In this document: positions 15,274-36,227 of the stretch, piece after piece
Numbering within the stretch: position 1 is the first letter of the stretch
Layout: each line of letters opens with the position of its first letter
NCBI GenBank assembly: GCA_965262305.1
Contig: CBDHEY010000002.1
Location: 657,135 to 721,134, forward strand
Origin: Cellvibrionaceae bacterium
GTDB lineage: Bacteria > Pseudomonadota > Gammaproteobacteria > Pseudomonadales > Cellvibrionaceae
Reading direction: 5' to 3'
DNA: 64,000 bases
The notes under the pieces: model-generated
Database searches by the model: none
Seen by the model: the letters and a program-made list of their open reading frames with translations, nothing else
What the model was told of the DNA's origin: nothing
Program-made: the position numbers and the translations under genes

Positions 15274-15918
15274 TTAAACGTAATAACTTGTTTTTGTCAT
15301 AGCCTTTGAAATCAAACTCATCACGTTTTTGACTGGCTTTGGGAAGTTTGTACCTCCTGCATCTAATGCTGCATGACCATGAGCTTCCTCATCTTCAAGC
15401 ATCTGTTTCAATATTTCTCTGGTTTTTAGGTCGTTCTTTGGTAATTCTTTTAAGTGTGATTTTAAGTGCTCGCTGACTTGCTCCTCAGTCGCTGCGACAA
15501 AGCCTAGGCTAATCTTATCGCTGACTAGACCAGCAGTTGCTCCCAGTCCAAAAGATAAAGAATACCAAAGAGGATTAAAAACACTTGTAGGTTCGTTTAA
15601 TTCTTTTAGTCTCGATTCGCACCAAGCGAGATGATCAATCTCTTCATCAGCCGCTTGCTCCATCTCATATCTTACAGTTTCTAGTTTTGCCGTTATTGAT
15701 TGGCCTTGATACAAAGCTTGCGCACAAACTTCTCCAGCGTGATTTACACGCATTAACCCCGCTACATGTTTTTTTTCCTTCTCAGATAATTCTTGTTCGT
15801 GGTCAACTTTCGAGGCAGGTGAACTGTTTGAAGCCACTTGGGTATTTCGAGTTAACGTTCTTAATGCGCGATCAGATTGAATAATGATCTGATCAATGAA
15901 TGTAATATTTCGTTTCAT
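15274..15918 (-). CDS. coq7: Ubiquinone biosynthesis hydroxylase, COQ7/Cat5 family (di-iron carboxylate)
   Basis: RVNHAGEVCAQALYQGQ and EE..H..W E-x-x-H di-iron motifs. 214-aa length. Confidence 0.85.
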   Translation of the reverse strand: MKRNITFIDQIIIQSDRALRTLTRNTQVASNSSPASKVDHEQELSEKEKKHVAGLMRVNHAGEVCAQALYQGQSITAKLETVRYEMEQAADEEIDHLAWCESRLKELNEPTSVFNPLWYSLSFGLGATAGLVSDKISLGFVAATEEQVSEHLKSHLKELPKNDLKTREILKQMLEDEEAHGHAALDAGGTNFPKPVKNVMSLISKAMTKTSYYV

Positions 15919-16003
15919 GTTTTTCCAAAATTACGCTAATCTAAAGCGTTTCTCGATGTCTTGTATGTTAATTTTTGTGCCAAAAAAGGAAACTTTATAC
16001 TCG

Positions 16004-23312: not shown

Positions 23313-24206
23313 TCACCTGTCGATTTGACGTTTATTTGATCTGTAGACGACATGAGGCGGAGGGTAATTCTTGAGTAGTAGTGCCTGACGGAACTTCTGC
23401 AATTCAGCATTGTTATCAAATGGGCCTACCTGAACTTTAAATAGTGGCGACCGTGATTGGGATTCGTTCACACCGGGAAAAAGGACATCGATTGGGTAGT
23501 GGGTTATATTCCTTAATTCTGCTTTGAGCGCATCGGCGTGTGAAAGATTGCTGAATGCGCCAACTTGGAGGTAGGTGTTTTCTGGCAGTTGGAATCCTGC
23601 TGAGTTCTTGGGCATTGGCGCCAGTTTTTCGGATTTATGCTTTTCATCTAAAGGTTTTTCGGGCGTATTTGCCGATTTGTATGTTTTGGGGTCAATATAG
23701 GTAACTAAGACTTTGGCGGTACCTTTTTCCACAAAACCGAGTTTCTTCGCAGCAGAGTAAGTAAGGTCAATCACCCTTTCATCGTGAAATGGCCCTCTAT
23801 CATTGATACGTACGATAACTGAAAGGTTATTTTCGGTATTTGTGACTCTAACATACGATGGAATGGGTAATGTTTTGTGAGCTGCCGTCATACCGTACAT
23901 ATTGTATATTTCGCCATTCGACGTTCGCCTACCATGAAACTTTCGCCCATACCACGAGGCTATGCCTGTTTCGCTATAGTCTTTTGGGGATTTAATAATA
24001 TGGTAAGTCTTTCCTCTTACTTTGTACGGGCTTTTATTCCCAGATTGGCTTAGGGGTTCCATCATTGGAACCGCATCTGGAATATGATCAACCCGAAGGG
24101 GTTCTTCCGGGTAGCTGTCTTTCTCTTCCACTACTCCGTAGAATTCGCAACCTGAAAATAAAACGCCTGATAAAAGCGTCAAAATTATTTTGCGCGAACG
24201 CGTCAT
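23313..24206 (-). CDS. rlpA: Septal ring lytic transglycosylase RlpA (DPBB domain plus C-terminal SPOR domain)
   Basis: Lipoprotein signal (LSGVLFSGC). ASWYG...HG..TSNGE DPBB motif. C-terminal SPOR-like region. Confidence 0.88.
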   Translation of the reverse strand: MTRSRKIILTLLSGVLFSGCEFYGVVEEKDSYPEEPLRVDHIPDAVPMMEPLSQSGNKSPYKVRGKTYHIIKSPKDYSETGIASWYGRKFHGRRTSNGEIYNMYGMTAAHKTLPIPSYVRVTNTENNLSVIVRINDRGPFHDERVIDLTYSAAKKLGFVEKGTAKVLVTYIDPKTYKSANTPEKPLDEKHKSEKLAPMPKNSAGFQLPENTYLQVGAFSNLSHADALKAELRNITHYPIDVLFPGVNESQSRSPLFKVQVGPFDNNAELQKFRQALLLKNYPPPHVVYRSNKRQIDR

Positions 24207-24224: not shown

Positions 24225-24788
24225 TTATTTCGCCTTCTTTACCTTAGACTTGCGAGCGGATGTGTGCCACAAATAAGCGAAAATTACTCCGCCCAATGCG
24301 CCACCTATGTGCGCTTCGAAAGAAATGTACGCTGACACTGGTAACAACCCATAAATCATGCCACCTTCTAGTAATATCACAAGAGTTGCGTACAAAACAT
24401 AGACAATTTTTTTTTCGAAAAATGCCCTAAATATTATTAGCGTCCACATTCCAAATATTACGCCACTGGCTCCTATGTGGATTCCTGGGCGCGCGACGAG
24501 CCACACAAATAGGCCACTGAATAGCGCCAAAAAAATCAAACTACTATAAAAATAGGTTTTACCCAAACCTACTAAGAAAAATGAAAAAAGTAAAAAGCCT
24601 ATTGAATTCGAAAGTAGATGTTCAATATTACCATGAAGAAATGGCGCACTTAACACATAAAATAGGTGCTCATTAGATCTGGGCAAAACACCGAAACGAC
24701 TTAAGTTCAGTGAGAAGTAATGATCCACAATAAATACGAGAATTAAAATCAATACGATGTTTATTGCCGTGCGATAGTTTTTTAGCAA
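24225..24788 (-). CDS. Rhomboid-family intramembrane serine protease
   Basis: Six TM helices with the catalytic GASGVIFG (GxSG) and AHIGGALGG (His) motifs. 187 aa. It is the last gene of the mltB-rlpA insertion. Confidence 0.8.
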   Translation of the reverse strand: MLKNYRTAINIVLILILVFIVDHYFSLNLSRFGVLPRSNEHLFYVLSAPFLHGNIEHLLSNSIGFLLFSFFLVGLGKTYFYSSLIFLALFSGLFVWLVARPGIHIGASGVIFGMWTLIIFRAFFEKKIVYVLYATLVILLEGGMIYGLLPVSAYISFEAHIGGALGGVIFAYLWHTSARKSKVKKAK

Positions 24789-24858: not shown

Positions 24859-27800
24859 CTAGCTGTTGAACGTTTGTTGGGTTGATGTGGTTTCAACATC
24901 AATTTTTCGCAGTTCTTCTAATACTTGTTGCATTTTGTCATGCGTTCTTAAATCGATTTCTAACTTCTTATCCATACTTCTAACGAGTGGGAAGATACTT
25001 TCTTCAATTGTTTTGGCAAGTGTATTTAATATTTTATCAATTCCTGGAACGGGTTGGTTAACAACCTCGATGTTTGTTGTATTGGGTGTTGTTTTTTCTT
25101 GTGCGGTTGAAAGTTTTCGTAAACTGGCTTCGATCTGTTGAAGCTCTCTTATACCAGCTTTTTGCATATCGTTAGATGCTGTTGATTTCGCTACTTCTGT
25201 TAATGTCGAAATGTTATTTGCCAAATCAATAAGTTGTGCGACGACGCGTCCACCTATATCGGCACTGTCACCACCCATTGCTTTATTTCTCATAAAGTCT
25301 TCTTTTATTTGCTCCCAGCGCACGCGAGACTTATCTGAAAACTGATTTCTTAACTCTTCTAGTTTTAAGAGGTTAGCTTCCGCGCCGGTTGTAAGCATTT
25401 GAGCCTCACCAAGATAATGATCTTCGATCAGTTGCTGGAGCTCATTTTCATTCATTACAGAAGATACTTTCTCGGCCATCTTGTTCATGTTTCGATAGCT
25501 ACCTTGGAGTTTAAATGGTGGTTCAGTCCTATATTTATCATCTTGCGCTGCAGATGCGATATATTCTAAGTTGATTTTTAATATTACATCTTGAATGACA
25601 AAAAGCTTTTTCAGTACTGATGTTATTTCGTTCACCTCGGCCACCGAATATTGGTGGTTCAGTTCCGAAGTTACGATATTTTTCCCTTTAGCTAAATCGA
25701 TTAGCTTATATATATCTGACATTTCTCTAGTCGCTAAAGGCGCAAGAATTGCGTTAGACGTTAAGCTGTTTTCGATGTAACTCAATGCAAATTGTTCGTC
25801 CATACCGCCAAGAATATCGCCAAGGTTATAAATATCTGCACGGTTAGCCAACATATCTGGTACTTTGAATGCTTCGCCAGCTTCCGTGTAAGGGTTACCA
25901 GCCATGACAACGCAGAATTTTTTGCCTCTCATGTCATAGGTTTTAGTTTCATTTGCCCAAACCCCTTCAATACGTCTTGTACCATCGCAAAGAGAGATAA
26001 ATTTCTGTAAAAATTCTGGATGGGTATGTTGAATATCGTCGAGATAAAGCATAACGTTGTTACCCATCTCGAACGCAAGATTTACTTTCAATAATTCTTG
26101 TTTAGCTGTCGCGTTTGGTGCCTGTGATGGATCCAGGCTCAAAACATCATGTCCAAGGGAAGGGCAATTGATTTTCATGAAAATTAGCCCTAGACGATTT
26201 GCTACGTATTCCATTAACGTCGTTTTCCCATATCCGGGTGGAGAAATCATCATTAACAATCCCATTAGATCTGATCTTTTGTTTTCTCCAACGGTGCCCA
26301 TTTGTTTCGCTAAGTTATCACCGATTAACGGTAAATATGATTCATTCACTAGTCGATTACGTACGAAAGAACTAAGCGGCCGAGGTTTGTATTGATCTAG
26401 CCTCAGGTTACTCTTTTCTTGATTAATGAGTTTTTGGCGACAATGTAAATAATTTCGATATCCTAATACAGTTTCTGTTGCGTGGGTCTCCAACCTTAGT
26501 AGAAACTCATCGAGGTCAAATTTAAGGGATTGGTTCTGGATCGTTTCATGGTTACCTAGCAAGCCCGAAGCCGTGGTTTTGAGATCAATTTCGGTGTTCC
26601 TTCTTTCAATTCTCTCTTCGGTATTAATGAGTGCAATTGCTTCCGGAATATATCGCTCTAGATGTTTGAGTGATTTATCTGCGACTAGAGCTTTCAACCA
26701 GGCTTCTGTGAGTTGCCATCTTTCTGCTGGCCAACCGAGCATTTTTTCCAGCGATGTTTGTAGTTTTCGCCAGGCAGTTTCGCTCATTTCAAGTTTTAGC
26801 TGATCAACAAGTTCTCTAGCATACTTGCTTGATACAAATTCCATACGATCTCTGCTAAGTTCTTCCGTTAAGTATTCTGCGCTTCGGCGGATCGTAATGC
26901 TCGTAATATCAATAGAGTGCTTTCCTATGAATTCATTTAATGCTGATTCAATTTCATTCTCAAGTAAATTTTTCGCCATATTGCTAGCAAAAATATCGCG
27001 CATTTGCGAAGCTGTGATCGAGCGATCCCTCCAAGTTTCATAACTTAGTTGAGAATCAGAAAGTTTAGTGTTCTGCTTAAGTCGAGTAACATACTTAATA
27101 TTTGCCCAAAATATTTGGGCTATTGCGCGTGATTCTGGATCAAATTTCAATAATTCGGCATTGGTGAGAACGGGATAAATTGCCTTTATTATTTGAGCCG
27201 CGTCAAAATCGTGTATGCCTTTTTCGTAACCTTCTTTATAGAGCGGCGTAGCGAAATCTCTTACATGACTTAGTAGCAATTTTTCATCATTTATTAGCGC
27301 ACCCAGTTTGTTACTTTTCGGACTTTTTAATATTTGATATGCAAGATACTCAGCGCGATAGACGTGAGGTGATTCCGATTCTATGTTTAGATCCCAAAAA
27401 TCGCTTAGATTGTTTAGCGCAATGTCCGTGACGAGTTCGTAATAGTCTGTGCCCGATAGATGGAAATAGAGTTGATTGTTTCGAGGAATAATCGTGAGAT
27501 CAAGCTCTTGGGTATTAACACTAAACCTATGACGAGGTCCAAGTTTTATTACTTTTCCACCATCCTCATAAATATCAGCTTTGTCCCTTAATGATCTAAA
27601 GGCATTGTCTTTTAAGTGTTTTATTTTTGCACTAATGTCGTCAGCTTTAACGCTACTAGAAAGTGAATTTAGCTGATCAACCATTTCATTTATTTTTAAT
27701 ACAAGTGCATCTGACGCAAAATAAGTATTAAGCTCGTCTTGCTCTTTAAATTTCAGTATTCTCCGATCTATGCTCGCCAATATGCGCTCAGCCGCATCAA

Positions 27801-30126
27801 AAATGTTCTGTGCTTTTCGTTGTTGAGCTTCCAACAACTGTTGCTTATGAGCTTCAAATGCTTCGTAAATTTCGTCTCGTTTAGCGAGTATATCTGCTAA
27901 AAATTGATCAAATTCACTGAATTGACTTTCTAATTCTTCTAATTGAACGAGAAGCCTTGAGAGTTGTTCATCGCATTTTTCTGGGGTTGTAGCCAGGCCC
28001 AAGGCGTTATTGATACTTTGTGAAAATAGTTTGAATTGTGCGGAGAACTGTGCGATCGCTTCGTCGGAACCCAGTGCTTTGCGTTTATTTTCGGTTTTCG
28101 CTCTGCATTGATTTAGTTTTGCATAGACTTCTGAAATAGCATCAATGATTTGTGTTCGAATGGTTGAATCTTCAATTTGAATTGTAGTCATTAATTCGGA
28201 AATTAAATCTAGCGCAGACGCGGTTGACTCAATTTCTTCTAATATCGGCTCAATGCTAGCTTTAGTTTTGGATTTATCTAGTTCTTTCGTAAAGGAATCT
28301 ATTTTTAATAGATAAGGTTTGATCGCCTCAGGGGAATTTAAAAACTGGACCGTTTTTTGTGAAAGGTTTTCTTCAAAAATTTTAAGTTCTGAATCGAGAG
28401 AGGCGATCCTTTCTTTATCAATATAACGATATTCAGAAATAGTTGCCAAGTGTCCGCGTTGTTGTCGTATACGCTTTAATGCTGCTACATAATCTCCAGT
28501 GTCTTCCCAGTTTTCCGGTCGAATGTGAGATTGAATGTCTTTTTGAGTTTTCTCTGCAGTGTCGAGCGCTTCTGCAGATTTTGCTTGAATAGATTGAATT
28601 TTTTCAAACTCGTCAATTACTAATTCAGCAGTTTCGCCGACGTCTTGCAAGCAGTTTTTTATTTCACTTGTTTCGTCTGAATTTAACCAATAATAACTAT
28701 CGAATAACTGTCTCGAATTTCTTGCCAGCTCTTCATAAAGAAAAGCTGTCACTTTTTGATTTTCAATCGCACGACAAATACTTAGTAGGTCAGATATCCC
28801 TCTTACGAGCTCCGCATTACCAATACGCCCATAAAAATTTTGCTTTTGTGGAATTTTAGCGGCGAACTCATCACTTATATAGGGAGTTTTCCAAACTTGC
28901 ATAGGATGAACCCGTGTAGGTTCATTTTCTGCCGTGAAGATAACGAGTGTTCCATCATCTGCAAGGGCATAACCGTGTCCATAGATAGGATTTTGTAGGG
29001 TCTTGTTTATCAGGTTGTAGGTTAAGAGTCCAACTATTCCATCTTCTGGTTCGTAAAAAATATATAAGACGTCTTCACCATTAGGCGATCTAATTGTGCG
29101 CTTATAAGTAAGAGAGCTATTATTAGCTTCAAATTTTTTGTGTTCTCCTGTTTGTAAATAATATCCACCAGGAAAGATTACACCATGATCTTCTGGAAGC
29201 TGCACGCAAGACTGACCTAATTCATCAATTCTAACCACTTCTTTAGTTAGTTTATTGAAAATTAAGTATCGCCATTGTTCCTCGCGATATGGTAGGACCT
29301 TAATTAGAATTAACGAGCCAACTGTGGCGTATGCCATTTCTGCATCATCTAAGGATTGTGTCTTGTCTTCCACTGGCTCGTTGTATATTCCTAGGCCGTC
29401 TTCCGTGTTGTTTTCTACCTTGACCGTTAGCGTTCCGCCCACAGTTTCAACAAAGACTTCATCCTTAATATTTGCGTGGGGGTGACGGCCGTGGATAGTG
29501 TCTTCTCTTGTTATGTTCTTCCATTCAAAGTCATTTTTAGGGGGCAGTTGTAAATCTCTTTCACCGCGGTTGTCGATATATTCAATTTTTTTTCCATCCG
29601 GTGATATGCCCCAGCGAAACACCCGAATATCTTCTATACGATCGCCAATTTGAAACCCTGCGAGTAATTTCCCATTTTTATTTACCAGTTGTAGAAGTTT
29701 TGCTTTTTTGTAATATCGATATAATTCAGAAAAATCATTCAGAAACCGAGTTTCGTATAGAAACGTTTGGCCTAGAGGTATCTCTTCTAAACTAGTTTCG
29801 TCAGCATCGAGTAGTTTAACAACCGAGAAAACATCTTCAACTTTGGTTTCTTTTTTGAGTCCGATGAACACGTTGTATCCGAATATCAATAATTCACCGG
29901 CTTGTACGATGTCTCTTGCAATTGAATTATTTCCGGTTCTAATACGGACTCGGCCTATAATAGCAAGTTCAGTACTGCCAAATTCCTTTAAACGACTTTG
30001 GTTTAAATTGTTACTTAGTTCACGAAGTTTTTTTCCTTGTTCATCTAAGCGTCTGCGGATAATTTCATACGCGCCACCTTCGGCTACGGCATTATCGATA
30101 ATGTTGCTGCTATTGTCGGTTTCCAA
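24859..30126 (-). CDS. Giant (1755 aa) multidomain protein: beta-rich N-terminal domain, ~800-aa coiled-coil region and C-terminal AAA_5 (MoxR/McrB/dynein-type) ATPase
   Basis: Single uninterrupted ORF. Walker A ISPPGYGKTTL, Walker B VMLYLDDIQH and an AAA_5-type sensor/Arg region VVMAGNPYTEAGEAFKVPDMLANRADI, all near nt 25840-26270. Long heptad-rich stretches fall between residues ~450 and ~1250. The N-terminal ~450 aa are rich in beta-strand-type sequence (YIFYEPEDGIVGLLTYNL...). Confidence 0.75.
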   Translation of the reverse strand: METDNSSNIIDNAVAEGGAYEIIRRRLDEQGKKLRELSNNLNQSRLKEFGSTELAIIGRVRIRTGNNSIARDIVQAGELLIFGYNVFIGLKKETKVEDVFSVVKLLDADETSLEEIPLGQTFLYETRFLNDFSELYRYYKKAKLLQLVNKNGKLLAGFQIGDRIEDIRVFRWGISPDGKKIEYIDNRGERDLQLPPKNDFEWKNITREDTIHGRHPHANIKDEVFVETVGGTLTVKVENNTEDGLGIYNEPVEDKTQSLDDAEMAYATVGSLILIKVLPYREEQWRYLIFNKLTKEVVRIDELGQSCVQLPEDHGVIFPGGYYLQTGEHKKFEANNSSLTYKRTIRSPNGEDVLYIFYEPEDGIVGLLTYNLINKTLQNPIYGHGYALADDGTLVIFTAENEPTRVHPMQVWKTPYISDEFAAKIPQKQNFYGRIGNAELVRGISDLLSICRAIENQKVTAFLYEELARNSRQLFDSYYWLNSDETSEIKNCLQDVGETAELVIDEFEKIQSIQAKSAEALDTAEKTQKDIQSHIRPENWEDTGDYVAALKRIRQQRGHLATISEYRYIDKERIASLDSELKIFEENLSQKTVQFLNSPEAIKPYLLKIDSFTKELDKSKTKASIEPILEEIESTASALDLISELMTTIQIEDSTIRTQIIDAISEVYAKLNQCRAKTENKRKALGSDEAIAQFSAQFKLFSQSINNALGLATTPEKCDEQLSRLLVQLEELESQFSEFDQFLADILAKRDEIYEAFEAHKQQLLEAQQRKAQNIFDAAERILASIDRRILKFKEQDELNTYFASDALVLKINEMVDQLNSLSSSVKADDISAKIKHLKDNAFRSLRDKADIYEDGGKVIKLGPRHRFSVNTQELDLTIIPRNNQLYFHLSGTDYYELVTDIALNNLSDFWDLNIESESPHVYRAEYLAYQILKSPKSNKLGALINDEKLLLSHVRDFATPLYKEGYEKGIHDFDAAQIIKAIYPVLTNAELLKFDPESRAIAQIFWANIKYVTRLKQNTKLSDSQLSYETWRDRSITASQMRDIFASNMAKNLLENEIESALNEFIGKHSIDITSITIRRSAEYLTEELSRDRMEFVSSKYARELVDQLKLEMSETAWRKLQTSLEKMLGWPAERWQLTEAWLKALVADKSLKHLERYIPEAIALINTEERIERRNTEIDLKTTASGLLGNHETIQNQSLKFDLDEFLLRLETHATETVLGYRNYLHCRQKLINQEKSNLRLDQYKPRPLSSFVRNRLVNESYLPLIGDNLAKQMGTVGENKRSDLMGLLMMISPPGYGKTTLMEYVANRLGLIFMKINCPSLGHDVLSLDPSQAPNATAKQELLKVNLAFEMGNNVMLYLDDIQHTHPEFLQKFISLCDGTRRIEGVWANETKTYDMRGKKFCVVMAGNPYTEAGEAFKVPDMLANRADIYNLGDILGGMDEQFALSYIENSLTSNAILAPLATREMSDIYKLIDLAKGKNIVTSELNHQYSVAEVNEITSVLKKLFVIQDVILKINLEYIASAAQDDKYRTEPPFKLQGSYRNMNKMAEKVSSVMNENELQQLIEDHYLGEAQMLTTGAEANLLKLEELRNQFSDKSRVRWEQIKEDFMRNKAMGGDSADIGGRVVAQLIDLANNISTLTEVAKSTASNDMQKAGIRELQQIEASLRKLSTAQEKTTPNTTNIEVVNQPVPGIDKILNTLAKTIEESIFPLVRSMDKKLEIDLRTHDKMQQVLEELRKIDVETTSTQQTFNS

Positions 30127-30214: not shown

Positions 30215-30754
30215 TTAGACTCTATAAGGGTCGTCCGATATTAAATACGCAATGATTTCAGCTTTGTGGTTAGATGATTGAACTATTGATCGCATAGCTT
30301 TTATTTGCTCAAAGTTTTCTTCAAACTGTTTTTGATAAAGTTCTTCGAGCATATCAGTCGTTTTAGCCTCCCGAACTTTTCTTTGCCAAACATCTGTAAA
30401 TATCTCGTTAAGTTTCAACGATAATCCACTATTTTTGAGTAGTTCCCACTCGCCATGATCCAACCAAATGGCATTTCTACTTGGGCTCAGATCCAAGCGA
30501 TGTTCTGTGGAAGCGGCTATTCTATATTTAATCATGAGATTTCCAGATTCAGGGCACAGTAGCGCCCTGTTTGACTCAGTAGCTTCAATCTCGAAATCAC
30601 CTACTTCATCCCTGATAGAACTTTGTTCCTTCCATTTCAGATAGTCCTGTAAATATAAAAAATTACCTTTACAGTTTGAACATCGCTTAGTGGGTAGAAA
30701 GGGTTCTAGAAAATGGTTAACCAACTTACCTTTGTTACAGCTAGTGCATTTCAT
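30215..30754 (-). CDS. Zinc-ribbon protein (zf-TFIIB-like C4 ribbon at the N-terminus plus a second, Cys-depleted copy)
   Basis: N-terminal C-x2-C...C-x2-C (CTSCNKG...CSNCKG). A second module, LLCPESGNLM...AIWLDHGEWELL, resembles the GvWlD.gEl zinc-ribbon tail but lacks three Cys. Confidence 0.55.
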   Translation of the reverse strand: MKCTSCNKGKLVNHFLEPFLPTKRCSNCKGNFLYLQDYLKWKEQSSIRDEVGDFEIEATESNRALLCPESGNLMIKYRIAASTEHRLDLSPSRNAIWLDHGEWELLKNSGLSLKLNEIFTDVWQRKVREAKTTDMLEELYQKQFEENFEQIKAMRSIVQSSNHKAEIIAYLISDDPYRV

Positions 30755-30769
30755 TTTAATCGCTCGTTC

Positions 30770-31009
30770 TTACAACCCGAATTTGGACTTGATTTCGCTA
30801 ACTCGCTGAATCATAGTTTGGTCCAGGTCTTTATCATTGAGCCTTGATATAATATTGCTTAGAACACGTTTCTCGTTCTCATCAACTACACCATCTCGCA
30901 GCGCAACGTCTACGAGGCCGTTTAATTCATCTACATCTAGCTTGCCATCATCTGCAAAACAATTGATAGATTTGAATGTCAGCTCTAAATAATCGCGTGA
31001 TTCGCTCAT
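30770..31009 (-). CDS. Small acidic hypothetical protein (79 aa; TerB/DjlA-N-like repeat character)
   Basis: Tightly packed between the flotillin and zinc-ribbon genes (15-16 bp gaps). DGKLDVDELNGLVDVALRDGVVDENEKRVL pattern. Confidence 0.4.
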   Translation of the reverse strand: MSESRDYLELTFKSINCFADDGKLDVDELNGLVDVALRDGVVDENEKRVLSNIISRLNDKDLDQTMIQRVSEIKSKFGL

Positions 31010-31025: not shown

Positions 31026-32975
31026 TTAAGGTTTTTCAGGTGTGTTTACATTTTGTGTGCCATTTTTAGGTTCCATAAACTTGGTAAGCAGAGCGTTGAT
31101 GGTGTCACTTTTTCCTGCTAATCCATCTATTGCTTTACCGATGGAAAGAGATTTCGCGAAATTGTTGAAGAAGTGATCTTCTCCGCCAACGATGTCGATT
31201 TTCGCTTTTTCAAGAGCTGTTGCAAGTACTTCGGCATTTTCTTTAGCAATGTTCTCTCCGGCATCTATTGCTGCAAGTGCTTCCTTCAGAGCCGTTTCTA
31301 AAGACATTCTAAACTCTTCGTGTTCTCTCGCTTTATCACTCATACTATTCATCGCATCGAATTTTTCTGTTAGTCCATCAGCTTCTGCTTTGAATTGTTC
31401 TCTCGTAACCTCGGCTTTAGCAGTACCAACTTGCTTCTCTGCTAGTGCTTCAGATTCTCCCTTCGCTGCGATTATTGATGCTTCTGCAAAACCTTCTTTT
31501 TCTTTTGCTGTTGCTTTGGCTTCTAAAACCTTTGCCTCTGCAATGCCTTCTTTTTCTAACGCATCGGCTTTAGCTTCTTGTATTTTTGCTTCAGCCAACC
31601 CGGGCGCAGCCACTTCTGCCTGAACTCCTTCTGCAAGTCGCTTCTTGGAATCGGCTTCTTTCGCAGCAGCATCAAGGTTTGCTTGGGCTATTGTAATTAT
31701 CTCTGCTGATTTGTGTTTCGCCGCTATTTCTTCAGCCTCAGCAGCTTTTATTTGTTTAACCTTTTCTTCTTCAGCTTTAGCTTCTGCATCAAGTATTTTT
31801 ACTTGTTTTTGACGGTCTGCTTCGGAAACTTCTCTAACCTCATTTATTCTTTCTTCTTCGATTGCAACTGTTTTATCAACAGCAATTCGTTCTCGGATAA
31901 CATTGGCAATTTCTTTCTTTTTAACTTCGATCGCTTTTTCAGCTTCAATGCGTTGAAGTTCCACTTCCCTCTCACGAGATACAATTTCAAGATCTCTTGC
32001 TCGAGCTACTTTTTCTTGTTCAATAGCAACTGCTCTCAATCGATTTTGTTCAGCAACTTCGATTTCACGCTGTTGGTTTTCTTTCTGGACGGAAAGGTCT
32101 TGATTAACTGAAATAGTTGTTTCTTCAGATTTCTTGCGTTCTTCTTCTTGTACTTTAATAGTTTCAGCTTCTTCTCTAGCTTCAATCGATGCAACTTCAC
32201 GTGATTGTCTAGCAATGGCATCTTTTTCTTGCTTGTCGAGTTCTAGAAGAGCCTCTTTGGTCTCGACATTCTTTTTAGTTATAGCTAGTTCTTCGTCTCG
32301 CTCGAGAATATTTGTTCTCACATTTTGGGTTGCGGTAAGTTCGGTAATCTTTTTTATACCTTCTGCGTCCAAAATATTGTTTGGATCTAGATCGGATTTT
32401 GGTGTTTGTTCTAAATAATCAATTGCAACATCTTCAAGAACATAACCATTTAGATCGTCACCAATAACCTGCACTATCTTCTCTCTGAACTCAAGGCGGT
32501 TTTCAAATAGTTGTACGAATTCGATTTGTTTTCCCACCGTTTTTAACGCTTCGGAGAATTTAGCATTAAAGAGTTCGTTAACCGCTTCCTTGTCTGAAGC
32601 TCGGGCAGCTCCAATGGATTTAGCAACTTTTAAAACATCTTCTGCAGTTTCATTTACTCTTAGGTAAAATGCTACGGTGATGTCAGCTCGCATATTGTCT
32701 GCACAAATAAGGCCGTCTTTACCTCTGCGATCAACTTCGAGCGTGATAAGTGAAATTCTCATTAACTCTTTTTTATGAATTACCGGCCATACTAAGGATC
32801 CTGTAAATGTGACCTTTGGTACTGACTTCATAGTGTTTACAATAAGCGCAGTACCTTGTTCAACCTTAATATAAAAAGCTTTAAATACTGTGATAATCGC
32901 CATTAGTAAAATAAATGCTACGACGATTATTGCGGCGATAAATGCTACCCCGGAAAGACCTGATAATTCGGCCAT
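31026..32975 (-). CDS. Flotillin-family SPFH/band-7 protein (YqiK/FloT-like) with a long E/A/K-rich coiled-coil tail
   Basis: N-terminal TM helix. SPFH domain. An extended EA-rich coiled coil (EAEKAIEVKKKEIANV...) with internal imperfect repeats (KEGIAEAKVLEAKATAKEKEGFAEA). 649 aa. Confidence 0.85.
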   Translation of the reverse strand: MAELSGLSGVAFIAAIIVVAFILLMAIITVFKAFYIKVEQGTALIVNTMKSVPKVTFTGSLVWPVIHKKELMRISLITLEVDRRGKDGLICADNMRADITVAFYLRVNETAEDVLKVAKSIGAARASDKEAVNELFNAKFSEALKTVGKQIEFVQLFENRLEFREKIVQVIGDDLNGYVLEDVAIDYLEQTPKSDLDPNNILDAEGIKKITELTATQNVRTNILERDEELAITKKNVETKEALLELDKQEKDAIARQSREVASIEAREEAETIKVQEEERKKSEETTISVNQDLSVQKENQQREIEVAEQNRLRAVAIEQEKVARARDLEIVSREREVELQRIEAEKAIEVKKKEIANVIRERIAVDKTVAIEEERINEVREVSEADRQKQVKILDAEAKAEEEKVKQIKAAEAEEIAAKHKSAEIITIAQANLDAAAKEADSKKRLAEGVQAEVAAPGLAEAKIQEAKADALEKEGIAEAKVLEAKATAKEKEGFAEASIIAAKGESEALAEKQVGTAKAEVTREQFKAEADGLTEKFDAMNSMSDKAREHEEFRMSLETALKEALAAIDAGENIAKENAEVLATALEKAKIDIVGGEDHFFNNFAKSLSIGKAIDGLAGKSDTINALLTKFMEPKNGTQNVNTPEKP

Positions 32976-33002: not shown

Positions 33003-33656
33003 TTAGTTAGAATTGAATTCGTTTTCAGAAATTACTGAATAGGTTCCTGATTCTTCATGTCTTTCGAGTAACACTACCTTGTCTCCTTTGTTGAATATTT
33101 TATTGTTTCGGCTTCTCACTCTTAGAAGTAATCCTGCTCCGCCGTCTTCGAGAATAGCTTCTCCAAATTTGTCATCAACACGGCTGGACCTAACTACTGC
33201 AACTTGGCCAATAACGTGTTTTATTGAAGGCGCTTCCATTTGTTTAAAAAGCTTCCTTAAGGGTTTGATTACAATTGTTGTAATCAGAACCGATATATAA
33301 AAAACGCATGCCATAATTCCAATGCCTACAACGAACTCTAGCGTGCGACCCGGAATAAAAGGGTTTATTAGTGCGACGGCAATATAACAGAGTATCCATC
33401 CTGTAAGTGACAAAATGGTGATGATGATAGGTAGAGGCACTCCATTTAATCCTATCTTCATAAGTACGCCACCGATCCCGCCTATGTTTCCTTCCGCTAT
33501 TTCAATTTCAAAAGCATCTATATCAAAAACCCCGAGTATCGATACAAGCCAGAATAAAACACTAAACCCCAAAAAAAACGTAAAAACAACTGTTGGAAAT
33601 GAGCTAATGTTGTTGTAGAACGGGCTCATCCCTTCATGTAATAAAATTGCAAACAT
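33003..33656 (-). CDS. NfeD/YqiJ-like membrane protein (flotillin partner; C-terminal OB-fold)
   Basis: Several TM helices followed by a C-terminal soluble beta-domain (GDKVVLLERHEESGTYSVI). Immediately upstream of the flotillin gene, as in yqiJK and yuaFG operons. Confidence 0.7.
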   Translation of the reverse strand: MFAILLHEGMSPFYNNISSFPTVVFTFFLGFSVLFWLVSILGVFDIDAFEIEIAEGNIGGIGGVLMKIGLNGVPLPIIITILSLTGWILCYIAVALINPFIPGRTLEFVVGIGIMACVFYISVLITTIVIKPLRKLFKQMEAPSIKHVIGQVAVVRSSRVDDKFGEAILEDGGAGLLLRVRSRNNKIFNKGDKVVLLERHEESGTYSVISENEFNSN

Positions 33657-33726: not shown

Positions 33727-34413
33727 CTATTTTTTGTTTTTGATTCTCTCTAGCACACTTGAAGCGTCTGTGCCTTTGGGCGCGATTCCAGCTTCTTCAA
33801 GTTTAACCTGAAGGTCTTTATCTTCGAATTCGTCAGCAAGCTCGGATGCGGCTTTCATTTTTGCGGCTTTCATTGCTTGTTTTTCTTTAATGCGTTCTAG
33901 TGAATCCATAGCTGTTCGAAGCTTTGAGTTGGAACCGCTATGCCTCTCCGCGACGGCTTCTTGAGCCCGCTGCACGCTTTCAGTGGCTTTGACTGTGTCG
34001 ACCTGTTGCTGCATACGTTTGATGTTCGTTTCAGCTTGCTTAATCGATAAGCGCAATTGCTCTGCTTGCGCATGGAAACCTTTTATCGCTTGATCTTCTG
34101 TTGCTAAATTATTTTCCAGATCGGCAATTTTTTGAGCGATCTCTAACGCTAGATTTTCATCATTTTTATCGAGCGCTTGGGAAGCATAGTCTTCGTATTC
34201 GCTAATTTGCTTTTTTATCGAGCTAAACTTTTCCTCACCTATTTTTTTGTGTGCGATGATCGAAGCTAAGCCTTCCTTACTGTTTTTAACTTCTTCGGAC
34301 GCATCTCTTAATTCTTGATCCAAAATTCTGAGTGCCTGACTATCCGTAATTGCTTCGCCGGCTTCATTAATTCCGCCTCTAAGAGCTGTTATCATCTTTG
34401 CCCAAACATTCAT
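33727..34413 (-). CDS. PspA/IM30 (Vipp1) family protein
   Basis: 228-aa all-alpha coiled-coil protein. N-terminal MNVWAKMITALRGGINEAGEAITD fits the PspA amphipathic helix region. ESCRT-III-like heptads throughout. Confidence 0.8.
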   Translation of the reverse strand: MNVWAKMITALRGGINEAGEAITDSQALRILDQELRDASEEVKNSKEGLASIIAHKKIGEEKFSSIKKQISEYEDYASQALDKNDENLALEIAQKIADLENNLATEDQAIKGFHAQAEQLRLSIKQAETNIKRMQQQVDTVKATESVQRAQEAVAERHSGSNSKLRTAMDSLERIKEKQAMKAAKMKAASELADEFEDKDLQVKLEEAGIAPKGTDASSVLERIKNKK

Positions 34414-34425
34414 TTTAATGCTCCT

Positions 34426-35058
34426 TTATGCTGTTACTTCTGCAGATAAATTTAAAAATTCACTATAAGCCTCTGTAGCTTGAATAACGTTAGAAGCTAA
34501 AACTTCTATTTCAAGTATCACATTGCTAATTAGAGATGATGCGCTCAACGCCCCGAACATGTGGTAGTGATCTGGATGCCCTTTAACGCTCTCCAGGCAA
34601 ATCGTTGATAGTGGAAAATACTTATGTGTTTTAAGTACCGCCTCGTTAAAGCTGGCTTTATCAACCACGTCTTCGATTGACCATAGAACACATTCAACAA
34701 TGATTTGGTCACCAACAACAGATAAGTAAACAGGTAAATCGCCAAATTCTCGCATTTCGATTAAAAGGCTTGGTTCTATGCCATTTATGAGCTCGATTCT
34801 AGCCTGTCCAGTTCTAAATAGTGCTTGTTCTTTGAGCTCTTTAAGTAGTTCCACGGTAGTCCACGATTTTGTAACACCTTTCATAGGTTCTTCTCCTAGT
34901 TGCTGTTTTAAACCTTCCGCGGTCCGCAATTTCATCTCAAGTTTTGAGAGTGTTTTGCTGTGCTGTGGGAGAACCCAGACTTCCTTTTTTATAAGTCCTT
35001 GCTCGCGCAGTCTTTTGCGGTATTCGCGTTGATAATGTGCTGAAGATTTCGCTTTCAT
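34426..35058 (-). CDS. YjfI-like (DUF2170) domain protein with a basic N-terminal extension
   Basis: The C-terminal ~130 aa (LPVYLSVVGDQIIVECVLW...FNEAVLKTHKYFPLSTICL...MFGALSASS) fit the DUF2170 pattern found upstream of pspA-like yjfJ in E. coli. Residues 1-60 are Lys/Arg-rich. The family assignment is from memory. Confidence 0.5.
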   Translation of the reverse strand: MKAKSSAHYQREYRKRLREQGLIKKEVWVLPQHSKTLSKLEMKLRTAEGLKQQLGEEPMKGVTKSWTTVELLKELKEQALFRTGQARIELINGIEPSLLIEMREFGDLPVYLSVVGDQIIVECVLWSIEDVVDKASFNEAVLKTHKYFPLSTICLESVKGHPDHYHMFGALSASSLISNVILEIEVLASNVIQATEAYSEFLNLSAEVTA

Positions 35059-35075
35059 GAAGTTACTCTATAGTA

Positions 35076-35130
35076 TTACATGTGATTTTTCAATAAATTA
35101 CATGTAATTTTTATAATTATTACATGTGAT
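35076..35130. promoter_or_regulatory. Three copies of a palindromic TTACATGT(G/A)AT motif at exact 22-bp spacing upstream of the flotillin/PspA island
   Basis: Copies at 35076-35086, 35098-35108 (ATTACATGTAAT, a perfect palindrome) and 35120-35130. They lie 18-72 bp upstream of the first gene of the eight-gene minus-strand cluster. Confidence 0.5.
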
Positions 35131-35240: not shown

Positions 35241-36227
35241 TTAGAGCTTAGCTTTGATCTTTTGACTTAACTGCCATACCGCCATTGCGTAAAGTCGGCT
35301 TCGGTTATAACGTGTTATTACGTAATAATTGTGGAAGCCCAACCAGTATTCATCTCCATTTTTTCCGTAATAATGAAGAGGCTTAACATTGAGGTTTTCA
35401 TCAAGGCCTTTTTGAGTCGGGTTAAAACCCATTGATTTGGCTTTGCTAAGGGGTGTATTAGGTTTTCCTTTTTTGTTGAAAAGCGTTTTGTCGAGTTCTT
35501 CAGGGAAACGCATTCGAACGAGAGTGGGTTCACCCTCGCGCCAACCGTGTTTTTTGAAATAGTTTGCGACACTACCGATAGCGTCGGCTGGGTTGTTCCA
35601 GATGTCTGCAACACCGTCTTCTGTAAAATCGACAGCGAAGTCGCGATAGCTACTTGGTATAAATTGCCCATAACCCATAGCGCCGGCATAAGATCCTTTT
35701 AGTGAAAGCGGATCAAGTTTTTGTTCTTTGGATAGAAGAATAAATTCCTGTAGTTGCTTACGGAAAAATTTTCCTCGTTTAGGATAGTCAAATCCAAGAG
35801 TAGCCAATGCATCGATTACGCGGAATTTGCCTGTATGTCTTCCATAACGAGTTTCAACTCCAATAATGGCTACAATGATTTCTGGTGACACCTGGTATTT
35901 CTTCGAAGCGGCGGTGATTGTCTCCTTGTGTTTATTCCAAAACTCAACGCCCTGCTGGATACGTTTATCGCCTAAAAATATATCTTGATACTCATCCCAT
36001 TTTTTTGTTTTTTCTGCTGGGCGAGATATGGCATCTAAAATGGATTGTTTTTTTTCAGCTTGTTTGAGTAGATCAAGTATTTCTTGTTTGTTAATGTTAT
36101 TTTCTTTTGCGAGTTTGTTTACAAAGTCATTTGCAAGTTCGTGATCTGAATAATCAGCAAAAACTAAAACGGGATAAAAAATCAAGATCGAAATAGTTAA
36201 AAGTGTGAAATGAAAGTTTTTAAACAT
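35241..36227 (-). CDS. mltB: Membrane-bound lytic murein transglycosylase B
   Basis: GSYAGAMGYGQFIPSSY and RYGRHTG motifs of MltB/SltB. Signal sequence. Confidence 0.88.
   Translation of the reverse strand: MFKNFHFTLLTISILIFYPVLVFADYSDHELANDFVNKLAKENNINKQEILDLLKQAEKKQSILDAISRPAEKTKKWDEYQDIFLGDKRIQQGVEFWNKHKETITAASKKYQVSPEIIVAIIGVETRYGRHTGKFRVIDALATLGFDYPKRGKFFRKQLQEFILLSKEQKLDPLSLKGSYAGAMGYGQFIPSSYRDFAVDFTEDGVADIWNNPADAIGSVANYFKKHGWREGEPTLVRMRFPEELDKTLFNKKGKPNTPLSKAKSMGFNPTQKGLDENLNVKPLHYYGKNGDEYWLGFHNYYVITRYNRSRLYAMAVWQLSQKIKAKL

What the first reader, a model, noticed from the sequence alone, without database searches (positions are those of the whole stretch)
24859..30126. Giant 1755-aa protein: N-terminal beta-rich domain, ~800-aa coiled coil and C-terminal AAA_5 ATPase
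The architecture is unusual for bacteria. An ~450-aa beta-strand-rich N-terminal domain (possibly propeller or lectin-like) is followed by a very long heptad-rich alpha-helical region. The C-terminus carries an ATPase with AAA_5 (MoxR/McrB/dynein/midasin-type) signatures: Walker A PPGYGKTT, Walker B LYLDDIQH, and a sensor/Arg region VVMAGNPYTEAGEAFKVPDMLANRAD. A single AAA_5 module at the end of a long coiled coil is reminiscent of SMC/dynein-like mechanochemical proteins. The ORF is uninterrupted. Because it is ~5.3 kb, the encoded protein dominates the island.
Basis: seen in the sequence. Interest (0 to 1): 0.8.

Follow-up and report, generated by a model that had tools for sequence, protein, structure and literature searches.

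The report
Flotillin-linked giant AAA+ ATPase (BacE family)
The 1755-residue protein is real, but it belongs to a widespread, already catalogued and functionally untested family: a cytoplasmic ATPase always encoded next to a flotillin-like membrane scaffold, and it is the counterpart of BacE in the Pseudomonas aeruginosa bac envelope-stress/biofilm operon.

Summary
The ORF (24859-30126, minus strand, 1755 aa, TTG start with an AAGGA ribosome-binding site) is intact, and its full length is conserved in thousands of homologues. Its parts are:
- an N-terminal helix and a roughly 7-bladed beta-propeller (Pfam DUF3686);
- about 420 aa of heptad-rich helical bundles (including DUF7902);
- a confidently folded ~390-aa globular domain with no detectable relatives;
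- one AAA+ module with invariant motifs SPPGYGKT, DDxQH, GNP and NR;
- a variable tail.

The "~800-aa coiled coil" is therefore about half right. "AAA_5" is not resolved: Pfam AAA scores higher, and the nearest folds are Hsp100/Clp and MoxR, tied. "Unusual for bacteria" is wrong.

The gene sits in an eight-gene operon inserted between mltB and rlpA: YjfI/BacA, PspA, NfeD-like, flotillin-like, a 79-aa ORF, a Zn-ribbon protein, the giant, and a rhomboid. The NfeD-like/flotillin-like/giant triad is kept from Gammaproteobacteria to Streptomyces, Myxococcota and Bacteroidota.

The operon was described computationally (Ravi 2024). In P. aeruginosa it is bacABCDEF, with the giant as BacE/PA3728.

My best reading, which is inferred, is an ATP-driven remodeller of flotillin/PspA assemblies at the inner membrane. 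The "DNA repair ATPase" label has no support.

Side finding: a conserved TTACATGTAA operator array lies upstream of bacA.

The parts
24859..30126 (-). Giant ORF, 1755 aa (BacE/PA3728-family AAA+ protein); the stop codon is 24859-24861
   Evidence: ribosome-binding site AAGGA upstream of the TTG start
29980..30072 (-). N-terminal helix, residues 19-49 (heptad-like), packed before the propeller
   Evidence: AF2; heptad score
28882..29976 (-). Beta-propeller, residues ~51-415, about 28 strands (core of Pfam DUF3686, which spans residues 34-479)
27562..28818 (-). Helical-bundle / coiled-coil-like arm, residues 437-855; includes DUF7902 (residues 600-683 = nt 28078-28329)
26377..27549 (-). [not shown]
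25807..26259 (-). AAA+ alpha/beta core, residues 1290-1440. Walker A is 1295-1303 (nt 26218-26244). Walker B 'DD' is 1358-1367 (nt 26026-26055). The pre-sensor-1 beta-hairpin is 1384-1401. Sensor 1 N1411 and box VII R1429 lie within 1406-1431 (nt 25834-25911).
25267..25806 (-). Post-core helical region / enlarged lid, residues 1441-1620, with the invariant QGSYRxM motif (R1545 is a candidate sensor 2)
24862..25266 (-). Variable C-terminal tail, residues 1621-1755. It has low model confidence and is absent or unalignable in distant members.
31026..32975 (-). Flotillin-like SPFH protein (TM + SPFH + long helical region; BacD/PaFlo3 counterpart). It is the universal upstream neighbour of the giant.
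   Evidence: PMC13086221
33003..33656 (-). Multi-TM short-NfeD / YqiJ-like protein (BacC counterpart)
33727..34413 (-). PspA/IM30 family protein (BacB/YjfJ counterpart)
34426..35058 (-). DUF2170 / YjfI / BacA counterpart (CesT/Tir-like chaperone-regulator) with a basic 64-aa N-terminal extension
35065..35130 (-). Promoter-like site (TTGAAA-17-TAGAGT, 35093-35065) overlapped by three palindromic ATYACATGTAAT repeats (35119-35130, 35097-35108, 35075-35086; 22-bp period)
30770..31009 (-). 79-aa ORF, weakly TerB-like; conserved in 23 of 82 related loci
30215..30754 (-). Zn-ribbon (TFIIB-type) protein, 179 aa; present in 21 of 82 related loci
24225..24788 (-). Rhomboid-family intramembrane protease, 187 aa; accessory member, present in 34 of 82 loci

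Best explanation
The ORF encodes a cytoplasmic, single-module AAA+ protein of the DUF3686-DUF7902-AAA family. It is the counterpart of P. aeruginosa BacE (PA3728/PA14_16190). It is the ATP-consuming component of a conserved inner-membrane module whose invariant partners are a flotillin-like SPFH scaffold and a short NfeD-like membrane protein. A PspA (ESCRT-III-like) protein and its YjfI/BacA chaperone-regulator are frequent additional partners.

Proposed mechanism (all inferred):
- The AAA+ modules assemble into a ring.
- The propeller and N-terminal helix dock onto the flotillin-like scaffold and/or PspA polymers at the cytoplasmic face of the membrane.
- The helical arm and the family-specific globular domain act as a spacer or lever.
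- ATP binding and hydrolysis assembles, remodels or dismantles these membrane-shaping oligomers during envelope stress.

Functionally this would be analogous to Vps4 acting on ESCRT-III, or to an Hsp100/MoxR-type chaperone acting on a fixed client. It would not be homologous to Vps4.

What is shown: the architecture, the fold, the conserved catalytic motifs, the strict synteny, and (from the literature) co-transcription and co-regulation in P. aeruginosa. What is inferred: ring formation, the identity of the client, and the direction of the remodelling.
For: Architecture and fold:
- Pfam domains; AF2 models with mean pLDDT 81 and 78; propeller matches.
- Walker A, Walker B, sensor 1 and box VII Arg are invariant across 30 members down to about 30% identity. 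The AAA core is the most conserved part (71% mean identity against 25-43% elsewhere). This argues for a working nucleotide site.
- No TM segment in the giant. The flotillin-like, NfeD-like and rhomboid neighbours have strong TM segments.

Synteny:
- The flotillin-like gene is found in 79 of 82 loci, immediately upstream wherever inspected. The NfeD-like gene is in 75, YjfI in 53 and PspA in 52.
- The triad is kept in Streptomyces scabiei, a Myxococcota MAG and a 31%-identical metagenomic member, in Hymenobacter (Bacteroidota) and on pQBR103.
- The flotillin-like partner is more conserved than the giant (50-83% against 31-69%).
- The 649-aa partner is SPFH-related: hhalign probability 88%, E 2.8e-6 to a canonical Band_7/Flot protein.

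Literature:
- bacABCDEF is co-transcribed, and BacE rises 8.9-fold in a bacA mutant (PMC10948618).
- PA3728-PA3732 are induced by phage infection (PMC12041424). PA14_16190 is among the top RsmA-controlled genes (PMC8855297).
- In B. subtilis an SPFH protein physically links PspA to the membrane (PMC8581546).
- NCBIfam's BacA model hits the window's YjfI homologue at 290 bits (cut-off 300).
Against: - There is no experiment on any member of this ATPase family. No physical interaction with flotillin or PspA is known.
- The Walker B second acidic residue is Asp, not Glu, in every member (DDxQH).
- The beta2-alpha2 loop carries no aromatic-hydrophobic pore-loop motif (conserved GPxLGHxVxSLDP). A processive threading motor is therefore doubtful.
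- The AAA+ clade is unresolved.
- Deleting paFlo3 (bacD) in PA14 gives only about 20% less biofilm and no other phenotype under laboratory conditions (PMC13086221).
- PspA and YjfI are missing from about a third of the loci, so PspA cannot be the universal client.
Confidence: 0.5

Rival explanations
1. The protein is a nucleotide-dependent switch or scaffold, not a motor. It binds ATP and hydrolyses it slowly, like DnaA/ORC-type or some MoxR-type AAA+ proteins. This licenses or times the assembly of the flotillin/NfeD/PspA complex. The huge N-terminal region would serve as a static platform, with no substrate threading.
For: - Walker B is DD in all members instead of DE, and there is no aromatic pore loop.
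- The beta2-alpha2 loop is modelled as ordered (pLDDT 87-93).
- About 1250 residues of non-ATPase domains suggest a scaffold.
- The synteny evidence is the same as for the main explanation.
Against: - The nearest folds include the bona fide unfoldases Hsp101, ClpB, ClpA and Lon.
- A pre-sensor-1 hairpin, which contacts substrate in many AAA+ motors, is present.
- The extreme conservation of the whole catalytic set is equally compatible with active turnover.
Confidence: 0.25
2. The cluster is an anti-phage or anti-toxin defence system. The propeller senses an invader or membrane damage, the AAA+ module transduces the signal, and variable effectors (rhomboid here, a PLD/HKD hydrolase in P. aeruginosa) execute the response.
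For: [quoted passage not shown]
- Accessory genes vary: rhomboid in 34 of 82 loci, and a PLD-like gene in P. paraeruginosa.
- The module sits in different genomic contexts. No locus other than the window has rlpA or mltB flanks.
- It occurs on megaplasmids.
Against: - No PADLOC model matches the giant.
- No homologue was found in 50,697 phage records.
- The AAA+ domain is not of the STAND type.
- The core partners are housekeeping-type membrane scaffolds.
- Known P. aeruginosa phenotypes concern biofilm, rhamnolipid, swarming and virulence, with osmotic-shock induction (PMC10948618).
- Induction by phage is what any Psp-type envelope-stress response shows.
Confidence: 0.1
3. The protein is a DNA repair ATPase or an SMC/Rad50-like chromosome protein, as its database names say.
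For: - The only support is names given by sources ('DNA repair ATPase', 'ATPase involved in DNA repair').
- There is a sub-threshold RuvB_N / RuvB Walker-A hit (E 0.012-0.016).
- RuvB is among the Foldseek hits.
Against: - No DNA-binding, nuclease or ABC-type SMC head domain was detected.
- The RuvB similarity is confined to the generic AAA+ core.
- The invariant neighbours are membrane proteins.
- No paper links DUF3686/PF12458 to DNA repair.
Confidence: 0.03
4. The long ORF is an assembly or frameshift artefact that fuses several genes.
For: None found.
Against: - An identical 1755-aa protein exists in public data.
- Collinear full-length homologues (1590-1930 aa) extend down to 27-30% identity over the N-terminal 880 residues.
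- 99-100% coverage is seen in more than 200 listed homologues.
Confidence: 0.01

Closest known systems
P. aeruginosa bacABCDEF operon (Biofilm-Associated Cluster; BacE = PA14_16190 / PA3728), Mace 2008 and Wallart 2024
   Same: - Same gene order: YjfI/BacA, PspA-like BacB, short NfeD BacC, SPFH BacD/PaFlo3, then the giant ATPase (P. paraeruginosa locus L039).
- The giant is 55% identical over its full length.
- NCBIfam's BacA model hits the window's first gene.
- The same TTACATGTAA sites lie upstream of bacA.
   Different: - The window has a rhomboid, a Zn-ribbon protein and a 79-aa ORF instead of the PLD-like BacF.
- It sits in a different chromosomal site, between mltB and rlpA.
- No sigma54-type -24/-12 match is found upstream.
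- The equation BacE = giant is inferred from gene order and from PA14_16190/PA3728 being described as an 'ATPase involved in DNA repair' / 'ATPase'. It was not confirmed by a sequence in hand from PAO1 or PA14.
CesT/Tir-PspA-band-7/flotillin-AAA+-YqiJ/YuaF gene neighbourhood (Ravi, Aravind et al. 2024, mSystems)
   Same: It is exactly this neighbourhood, including the description of the ATPase as fused to coiled-coil and beta-propeller regions and the optional PLD hydrolase.
   Different: That work is purely computational and gives no anatomy of the ATPase. Added here:
- the ~390-aa globular middle domain;
- the DD Walker B;
- the pre-sensor-1 hairpin;
- the fold neighbours;
- the depth of the flotillin linkage;
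- the upstream operator.
HflK/C-FtsH (SPFH cage plus AAA+ machine)
   Same: An SPFH-family oligomer is paired with a dedicated AAA+ hexamer at the inner membrane (PMC13220708 abstract; own knowledge of the HflK/C-FtsH structures).
   Different: - FtsH is a membrane-anchored classical-clade AAA protease.
- The giant has no TM segment and no protease domain.
Vps4 / ESCRT-III
   Same: An AAA+ ATPase is encoded with an ESCRT-III-superfamily polymer (PspA). The proposed role is polymer remodelling on membranes.
   Different: - No MIT domain was detected.
- PspA is absent from about a third of loci, whereas flotillin is always there.
- This is analogy only.
MoxR-family AAA+ chaperones (CbbQ, NorQ, RavA) / Pfam AAA_5
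   Same: - The AAA_5 hit is just above threshold.
- The NP-x9-VP-x4-NR spacing resembles the MoxR sensor-1/box VII region (own knowledge).
- It has a single AAA+ module.
   Different: - There is no VWA/MIDAS partner gene in the neighbourhood.
- No helix-2 insert hairpin is modelled.
- Walker B is DD.
- There are about 1250 extra N-terminal residues.
- Hsp101 and ClpB score equally well.
B. subtilis pspA-ydjGHI operon
   Same: PspA, a Zn-ribbon-type small protein, an NfeD-like membrane protein and an SPFH protein function together in envelope stress. The SPFH protein recruits PspA (PMC8581546).
   Different: The B. subtilis operon has no giant ATPase. Homology of the window's Zn-ribbon protein to YdjG was not tested.

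Membership tests
AAA+ ATPase superfamily | Walker A P-loop GxxGxGK[ST] | tested here: met
   SPPGYGKTT at residues 1295-1303, invariant in 30 of 30 diverse members
AAA+ ATPase superfamily | Walker B hhhhD[DE] | tested here: met
   VMLYLDD at 1358-1364. D1363 and D1364 are invariant. The second acidic residue is Asp, not the usual Glu.
AAA+ ATPase superfamily | Sensor 1 polar residue after beta4, and box VII arginine | tested here: met
   N1411 (in GNP) and R1429 (in PDMLxNR) are invariant. Their roles are assigned from position in the AF2 model and from motif spacing, not from a complex.
AAA+ ATPase superfamily | AAA+ alpha/beta fold plus helical lid with a sensor 2 arginine | tested here: met
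   [not shown]
AAA+ ATPase superfamily | ATP hydrolysis and ring (hexamer) assembly | not testable with these tools
   Needs biochemistry, cryo-EM or multimer modelling.
Pfam AAA_5 / MoxR-dynein-midasin clade | Profile match above the curated threshold, and better than to other AAA families | tested here: inconclusive
   AAA_5 scores 24.7 bits (cut-off 22), but PF00004 AAA scores 30.9 bits and AAA_22 24.8. Precomputed hits across homologues switch between the three families.
Pfam AAA_5 / MoxR-dynein-midasin clade | Helix-2 insert beta-hairpin and pre-sensor-1 beta-hairpin | tested here: inconclusive
   A pre-sensor-1 hairpin is modelled at 1384-1401. The beta2-alpha2 segment (1320-1338) is modelled as ordered coil with a short helix, and no hairpin. 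This rests on a model only.
Pfam AAA_5 / MoxR-dynein-midasin clade | Nearest structural neighbours are clade members | tested here: inconclusive
   [not shown]
MoxR systems | Adjacent VWA/MIDAS-domain partner protein | tested here: not met
   No VWA domain is found in any island gene or conserved neighbour.
DUF3686-DUF7902-AAA family (BacE / 'DNA repair ATPase' by name) | Collinear DUF3686 + DUF7902 + C-terminal AAA, about 1600-1900 aa | tested here: met
   homologues
bac / PspA-flotillin-AAA+ operon | Giant ATPase immediately downstream of a TM-SPFH-coiled-coil protein and an NfeD/YqiJ-like membrane protein | tested here: met
   Window gene order; 79 and 75 of 82 loci; distant phyla. The SPFH relationship has hhalign probability 88%.
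bac / PspA-flotillin-AAA+ operon | YjfI(DUF2170, CesT/Tir-like)-PspA dyad at the head of the operon | tested here: met
   Pfam DUF2170 E 5e-47 and PspA_IM30 E 5e-48; NCBIfam BacA 290 bits against a cut-off of 300
SMC / Rad50 | ABC-type ATPase head split between the N and C termini, long antiparallel coiled coil, hinge | tested here: not met
   The single P-loop domain is AAA+ and lies at residues 1290-1440. The N-terminus is a propeller. The helices are short bundles.
Dynein / midasin | Six concatenated AAA+ modules in one chain | tested here: not met
   There is one AAA+ module only.
Vps4-type ESCRT-III disassemblase | MIT domain plus classical-clade AAA with the second region of homology | tested here: not met
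   [not shown]
Known anti-phage defence systems (PADLOC-DB 2.0) | Match to any defence-protein model | tested here: not met
   0 families at E<=1 for the giant. The neighbours were not scanned.

The most novel reading that the evidence does not exclude
BacE-family proteins are the first dedicated ATP-driven remodelling machines for bacterial flotillin/SPFH cages, and secondarily for PspA/ESCRT-III-like polymers. They would be a bacterial functional analogue of Vps4, built from a different AAA+ lineage, a propeller adaptor and a previously unseen ~390-aa domain. If so, flotillin microdomains in many Proteobacteria, Actinobacteria, Bacteroidota and Myxococcota are actively and energetically turned over rather than being passive scaffolds.
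Probability: 0.35. Interest if true: 0.75.

Novelty: new member of a known kind. Interest (0 to 1): 0.4.

Why it matters
Bacterial flotillins and PspA are thought to work without a dedicated energy source, and what regulates their assembly is an open question. A very large, deeply conserved AAA+ protein is welded by synteny to one flotillin subfamily across at least six phyla, and in P. aeruginosa it is co-transcribed with the bac biofilm/virulence genes. That makes it the obvious candidate for the missing motor or switch.

The misleading database name "DNA repair ATPase" probably keeps it out of sight. The anatomy given here (domain boundaries, catalytic residues to mutate, the unexplained conserved GxHDxDA domain) makes the family directly testable in a genetically tractable pathogen. 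So does the conserved operator upstream of bacA.

For this particular window, however, the gene is an ordinary new member of that family.

Tried and rejected
- Exact-sequence contig look-up of the window protein, to name the organism: not on record. Its cluster carries no name. The organism remains unidentified. It is a gammaproteobacterium-like genome by its lipA-lipB-dacA-rlpA / mltB-rodA-mrdA-rlmH-rsfS context, with about 40% GC.
- Sequence and profile searches of the AAA region against the PDB matched only the pre-Walker-A/Walker-A/beta2 stretch of Rix7, p97, VAT, RuvB and midasin (E 1e-5 to 1e-3). They cannot assign a clade.
- A profile of the middle domain against PDB sequences gave zero hits at E<=10. 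Pfam scans of its 12 members gave nothing credible.
- NCBIfam and PADLOC on the giant gave nothing useful.
- A representative with a 490-aa N-terminal extension (P0304) was tested as a possible flotillin-ATPase fusion. It showed no similarity to the flotillin-like protein.
- A sigma54 -24/-12 consensus search upstream of the operon found no site there, and window-wide counts were below chance.
- Pfam does not recognise the 649-aa flotillin-like or the 217-aa NfeD-like proteins at all. The PDB sequence search for the flotillin-like protein gave only a spurious low-complexity hit.
- Full-text searches for DUF3686, PF12458 and 'DNA repair ATPase' + flotillin returned no papers.
- The heptad score is a home-made crude measure, not COILS or MARCOIL.
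Full report
OBSERVATION

An AAGGA sits 8 nt upstream of the TTG. An identical 1755-aa protein is in the public collection (P0001). More than 200 listed homologues align over 90-100% of their length. Collinear full-length relatives (1590-1930 aa) persist down to 27-30% identity. The ORF is therefore not an assembly or frameshift fusion.

ANATOMY

Pfam finds four relevant matches:
- DUF3686, residues 34-479, E=5.5e-202;
- DUF7902, residues 600-683, E=3.6e-24;
- AAA (PF00004), residues 1292-1412, 30.9 bits, just above threshold;
- AAA_5 (PF07728), 24.7 bits, also just above threshold.

NCBIfam and PADLOC give nothing useful.

I modelled the protein in two halves with 75-row alignments.

N-terminal half (residues 1-880; mean pLDDT 81.4):
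- a helix at residues 19-49;
- about 28 beta-strands over residues 55-413;
- twelve helices between residues 437 and 852, two of them 51 residues long and the rest 10-31, separated by short loops.
- Foldseek against the PDB returns beta-propellers: IFT-A WD40 domains, Ski8, bacterial sialidase/pseudaminidase, and prolyl-oligopeptidase and trilobed-protease propellers (E 1e-7 to 1e-4).

C-terminal half (residues 841-1755; mean pLDDT 77.9):
- Residues ~871-1250 form a globular, mostly alpha-helical domain at pLDDT >90.
- The AAA+ core follows at ~1290-1440 (pLDDT ~80-94).
- There is a beta-hairpin at 1384-1401 between helix alpha3 and strand beta4, which is the pre-sensor-1 position.
- Next comes a helical region larger than a normal lid.
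- The last ~135 residues are poorly predicted.

A crude heptad score supports the split of the "coiled coil". Residues 437-855 are heptad-rich (37% of positions above threshold, against 6 +/- 6% for shuffles, similar to the neighbouring PspA). Residues 901-1250 are not (8%). The giant has no hydrophobic segment compatible with a TM helix.

CONSERVATION

I aligned 30 members from 72% down to ~30% identity.
- The AAA core is by far the most conserved region: 71% mean identity to the query, against 43% for the propeller and 25% for the middle domain.
- The C-terminal tail is largely absent or unalignable in distant members.
- Invariant AAA motifs: SPPGYGKT (Walker A), DDxQH (Walker B), R1384, G1410-N1411-P1412 (sensor 1), PDMLxN-R1429 (box VII), and QGSYRxM (R1545, a plausible sensor 2).
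- The second acidic residue of Walker B is Asp in every member.
- The beta2-alpha2 loop (GPxLGHxVxSLDP) has no aromatic-hydrophobic pore-loop motif.
- The middle domain carries an invariant G966/G970/H972/D975 cluster (GYxxGxHDxDA).

WHICH AAA+ CLADE?

- Sequence and profile searches against the PDB match only the N-terminal third of the core, to Rix7, p97, VAT, RuvB and midasin (E 1e-5 to 1e-3).
- Foldseek puts Skd3, ClpA, ClpC, ClpB and RuvB first.
- Together with the modelled pre-sensor-1 hairpin, this places the module in the hairpin-bearing part of the AAA+ tree (HCLR or MoxR-like), not in the classical clade.
- It does not decide for AAA_5. No VWA partner is encoded nearby.

CONTEXT

All on the minus strand, with gaps of 12-88 nt, the gene order is:
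- mltB (35241-36227);
- DUF2170/YjfI (34426-35058);
- PspA/IM30 (33727-34413);
- 217-aa multi-TM NfeD/YqiJ-like protein (33003-33656);
- 649-aa TM + SPFH-like + long-helix protein (31026-32975);
- 79-aa ORF (30770-31009);
- Zn-ribbon protein (30215-30754);
- the giant;
- rhomboid (24225-24788);
- rlpA (23313-24206).

The flanks are the conserved cell-wall cluster lipA-lipB-dacA-rlpA / mltB-rodA-mrdA-rlmH-rsfS. The eight genes are therefore an insertion. None of 82 related loci carries rlpA or mltB next to the module.

Across those 82 loci (51-69% identical giants from Cellvibrionaceae, Pseudomonas, Stutzerimonas, Xenorhabdus, Lysobacter, Lampropedia, Zetaproteobacteria, Longimicrobium and others), the neighbours occur as follows:
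- flotillin-like gene: 79 loci (immediately upstream of the giant wherever gene order was inspected);
- NfeD-like gene: 75;
- YjfI: 53;
- PspA: 52;
- rhomboid: 34;
- 79-aa ORF: 23;
- Zn-ribbon: 21.
- The few misses of the first two are contigs that end there.

The triad persists in more distant lineages:
- Streptomyces scabiei (giant 44% identical, flotillin-like 50%), a Myxococcota MAG, and a metagenomic member only 31% identical whose flotillin-like neighbour is still 52% identical;
- a Hymenobacter (Bacteroidota) plasmid, annotated Tir-chaperone / PspA / DUF1449 / hypothetical / "DNA repair ATPase";
- the P. fluorescens megaplasmid pQBR103, where it is joined to the yjfKLMC-type genes and a rhomboid.

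Thirteen plasmid or chromid records carry the giant, and no phage record does.

The 649-aa protein escapes Pfam Band_7 altogether. A profile of eight family members nevertheless aligns with a canonical Band_7/Flot protein at hhalign probability 88%, E 2.8e-6.

WHAT IS ALREADY KNOWN

- Ravi et al. [quoted passage not shown]
- NCBIfam's "biofilm formation regulator BacA" model hits the window's first gene at 290 bits (cut-off 300). That led to the P. aeruginosa bac cluster.
- In that cluster, PA3732-PA3729 = BacA-D (Mace 2008). It was extended by RT-PCR to bacABCDEF, with BacE = PA14_16190 and BacF = PA14_16200. Both are strongly up in a bacA mutant (Wallart 2024, PMC10948618).
- In P. paraeruginosa the giant lies immediately after the SPFH gene, and the next gene is PLD-like.
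[quoted passage not shown] PA3728 is listed as "ATPase".
- I therefore equate the giant with BacE. This is an inference from gene order and descriptions.
- PA3728-PA3732 are induced in all phage-infected samples.
- A paFlo3 (bacD) deletion has only a ~20% biofilm defect.
- No paper says what BacE does. No paper mentions DUF3686 or PF12458.
- In B. subtilis an SPFH protein (YdjI), with NfeD-like YdjH and YdjG, recruits PspA to the membrane (PMC8581546). This is experimental precedent for the PspA-SPFH partnership, without an ATPase.

MECHANISM

Shown:
- a soluble protein with a propeller, a helical arm, an unknown globular domain and one AAA+ module with a fully conserved nucleotide site;
- strict and deep synteny with a membrane-anchored SPFH protein and an NfeD-like protein;
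- frequent linkage with PspA and its chaperone-regulator;
- co-transcription and co-regulation in P. aeruginosa (literature).

Inferred:
- The AAA+ modules form a ring.
- The propeller and N-helix bind the flotillin-like scaffold and/or PspA polymers.
- ATP turnover assembles, remodels or dismantles these membrane-shaping oligomers during envelope stress.

I put this at about 0.5.

The main rival, at 0.25, is that the protein is a slow nucleotide switch or scaffold rather than a motor. The universal DD Walker B and the missing pore-loop aromatic point that way. A defence-system reading gets 0.1: phage induction, variable effectors and mobility speak for it, but there is no PADLOC hit and the partners are housekeeping-type. 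The database label "DNA repair ATPase" gets 0.03. It has no support beyond the name and generic AAA+ similarity to RuvB.

SIDE FINDING

Upstream of the YjfI/BacA homologue, three copies of ATYACATGTAAT lie 22 bp apart (35119-35130, 35097-35108, 35075-35086). The core TTACATGTAA is a perfect palindrome. The last copy sits inside the spacer of a sigma70-like TTGAAA-17-TAGAGT promoter.
- The motif occurs nowhere else in the window: 6 strand-hits against 1.08 expected, and 0 of 100 shuffles reach 6.
- In 1.93 Mb of related loci, 81 of 86 exact sites fall within 200 bp upstream of the YjfI homologue.
- 44 of 53 loci have at least one site, usually two, at 21-25 bp spacing. This includes P. paraeruginosa and betaproteobacterial Lampropedia.
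- The BacA homologues carry a basic ~64-aa N-terminal extension (SAHYQREYRKRLREQGLIKKEVWVLP) with sub-threshold similarity to MazE-like antitoxins (E 0.028) and to a plasmid repressor.
- This fits Wallart's observation that loss of BacA derepresses the operon, and suggests direct autorepression. That has not been tested.

VERDICT

The protein is a new member of a known but functionally uncharacterised family. It is worth experimental attention as a class. As a finding in this window it is not surprising.

Noticed in passing
window 35075-35130 (minus strand), upstream of the YjfI/BacA homologue; also L001-L082 about 30-100 bp upstream of each YjfI homologue: Three ATYACATGTAAT repeats (palindromic core TTACATGTAA) lie at a 22-bp period and overlap a sigma70-like promoter. 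The motif is unique in the window. It is conserved upstream of the bacA homologue in 44 of 53 loci, and 81 of 86 sites in 1.93 Mb fall in these 200-bp windows, P. paraeruginosa included. It is probably the operator of the operon. No report of it was found in the papers read.
   Followed up: partly
window 34867-35058 (minus strand), residues 1-64 of the YjfI/BacA homologue: A basic N-terminal extension precedes the DUF2170 domain. Its motif is RKRLREQGLxKKEVWVLP. It has only sub-threshold similarity to MazE-like antitoxins (PF11455, E 0.028) and to plasmid repression protein UrfF. It is a candidate DNA-binding element for the repeats above, which would fit BacA's reported negative control of the bac operon.
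   Followed up: partly
window 31026-32975 and 33003-33656 (minus strand): The flotillin-like (649 aa) and NfeD/YqiJ-like (217 aa) proteins get no Pfam or NCBIfam hit at all, even at lax thresholds. Profile-profile comparison and annotated relatives nevertheless show what they are ('SPFH domain-containing protein' in pQBR103, 'DUF1449' in the Hymenobacter plasmid). This is an annotation blind spot for this SPFH subfamily.
   Followed up: partly
[not shown]
   Followed up: partly
window 30770-31009 (minus strand): A 79-aa ORF between the flotillin-like and Zn-ribbon genes is weakly TerB/DjlA-like (E ~0.01). It is conserved at 44-66% identity in 23 of 82 related loci, at varying positions in the cluster, so it is probably a real small gene.
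   Followed up: partly
window 24225-24788 (minus strand); L039 15216-15923: The gene after the giant varies. Here and in 34 of 82 loci it is a rhomboid-family protease (weak rhombosortase similarity, 31.8 bits against a cut-off of 84). In the P. aeruginosa group it is a PLD-like HKD hydrolase (= BacF). The two membrane-active enzymes appear to be interchangeable accessories.
   Followed up: partly
L086 (pQBR103, NC_009444.1 85112-97641): On the P. fluorescens SBW25 megaplasmid the module is fused with the E. coli yjfKLMC-type genes (DUF2491, DUF350, DUF1190, glutathionylspermidine-synthase family) and a rhomboid, between PspA and the NfeD-like/SPFH/giant triad. This joins the two PspA-YjfI operon classes described by Ravi et al..
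   Followed up: no
window 15896-17491 (plus strand): A separate 531-aa classical AAA protein (PF00004 E 2.4e-28, AAA_lid_3) lies about 7 kb from the island on the other strand. It appears unrelated to the giant and was not examined further.
   Followed up: no
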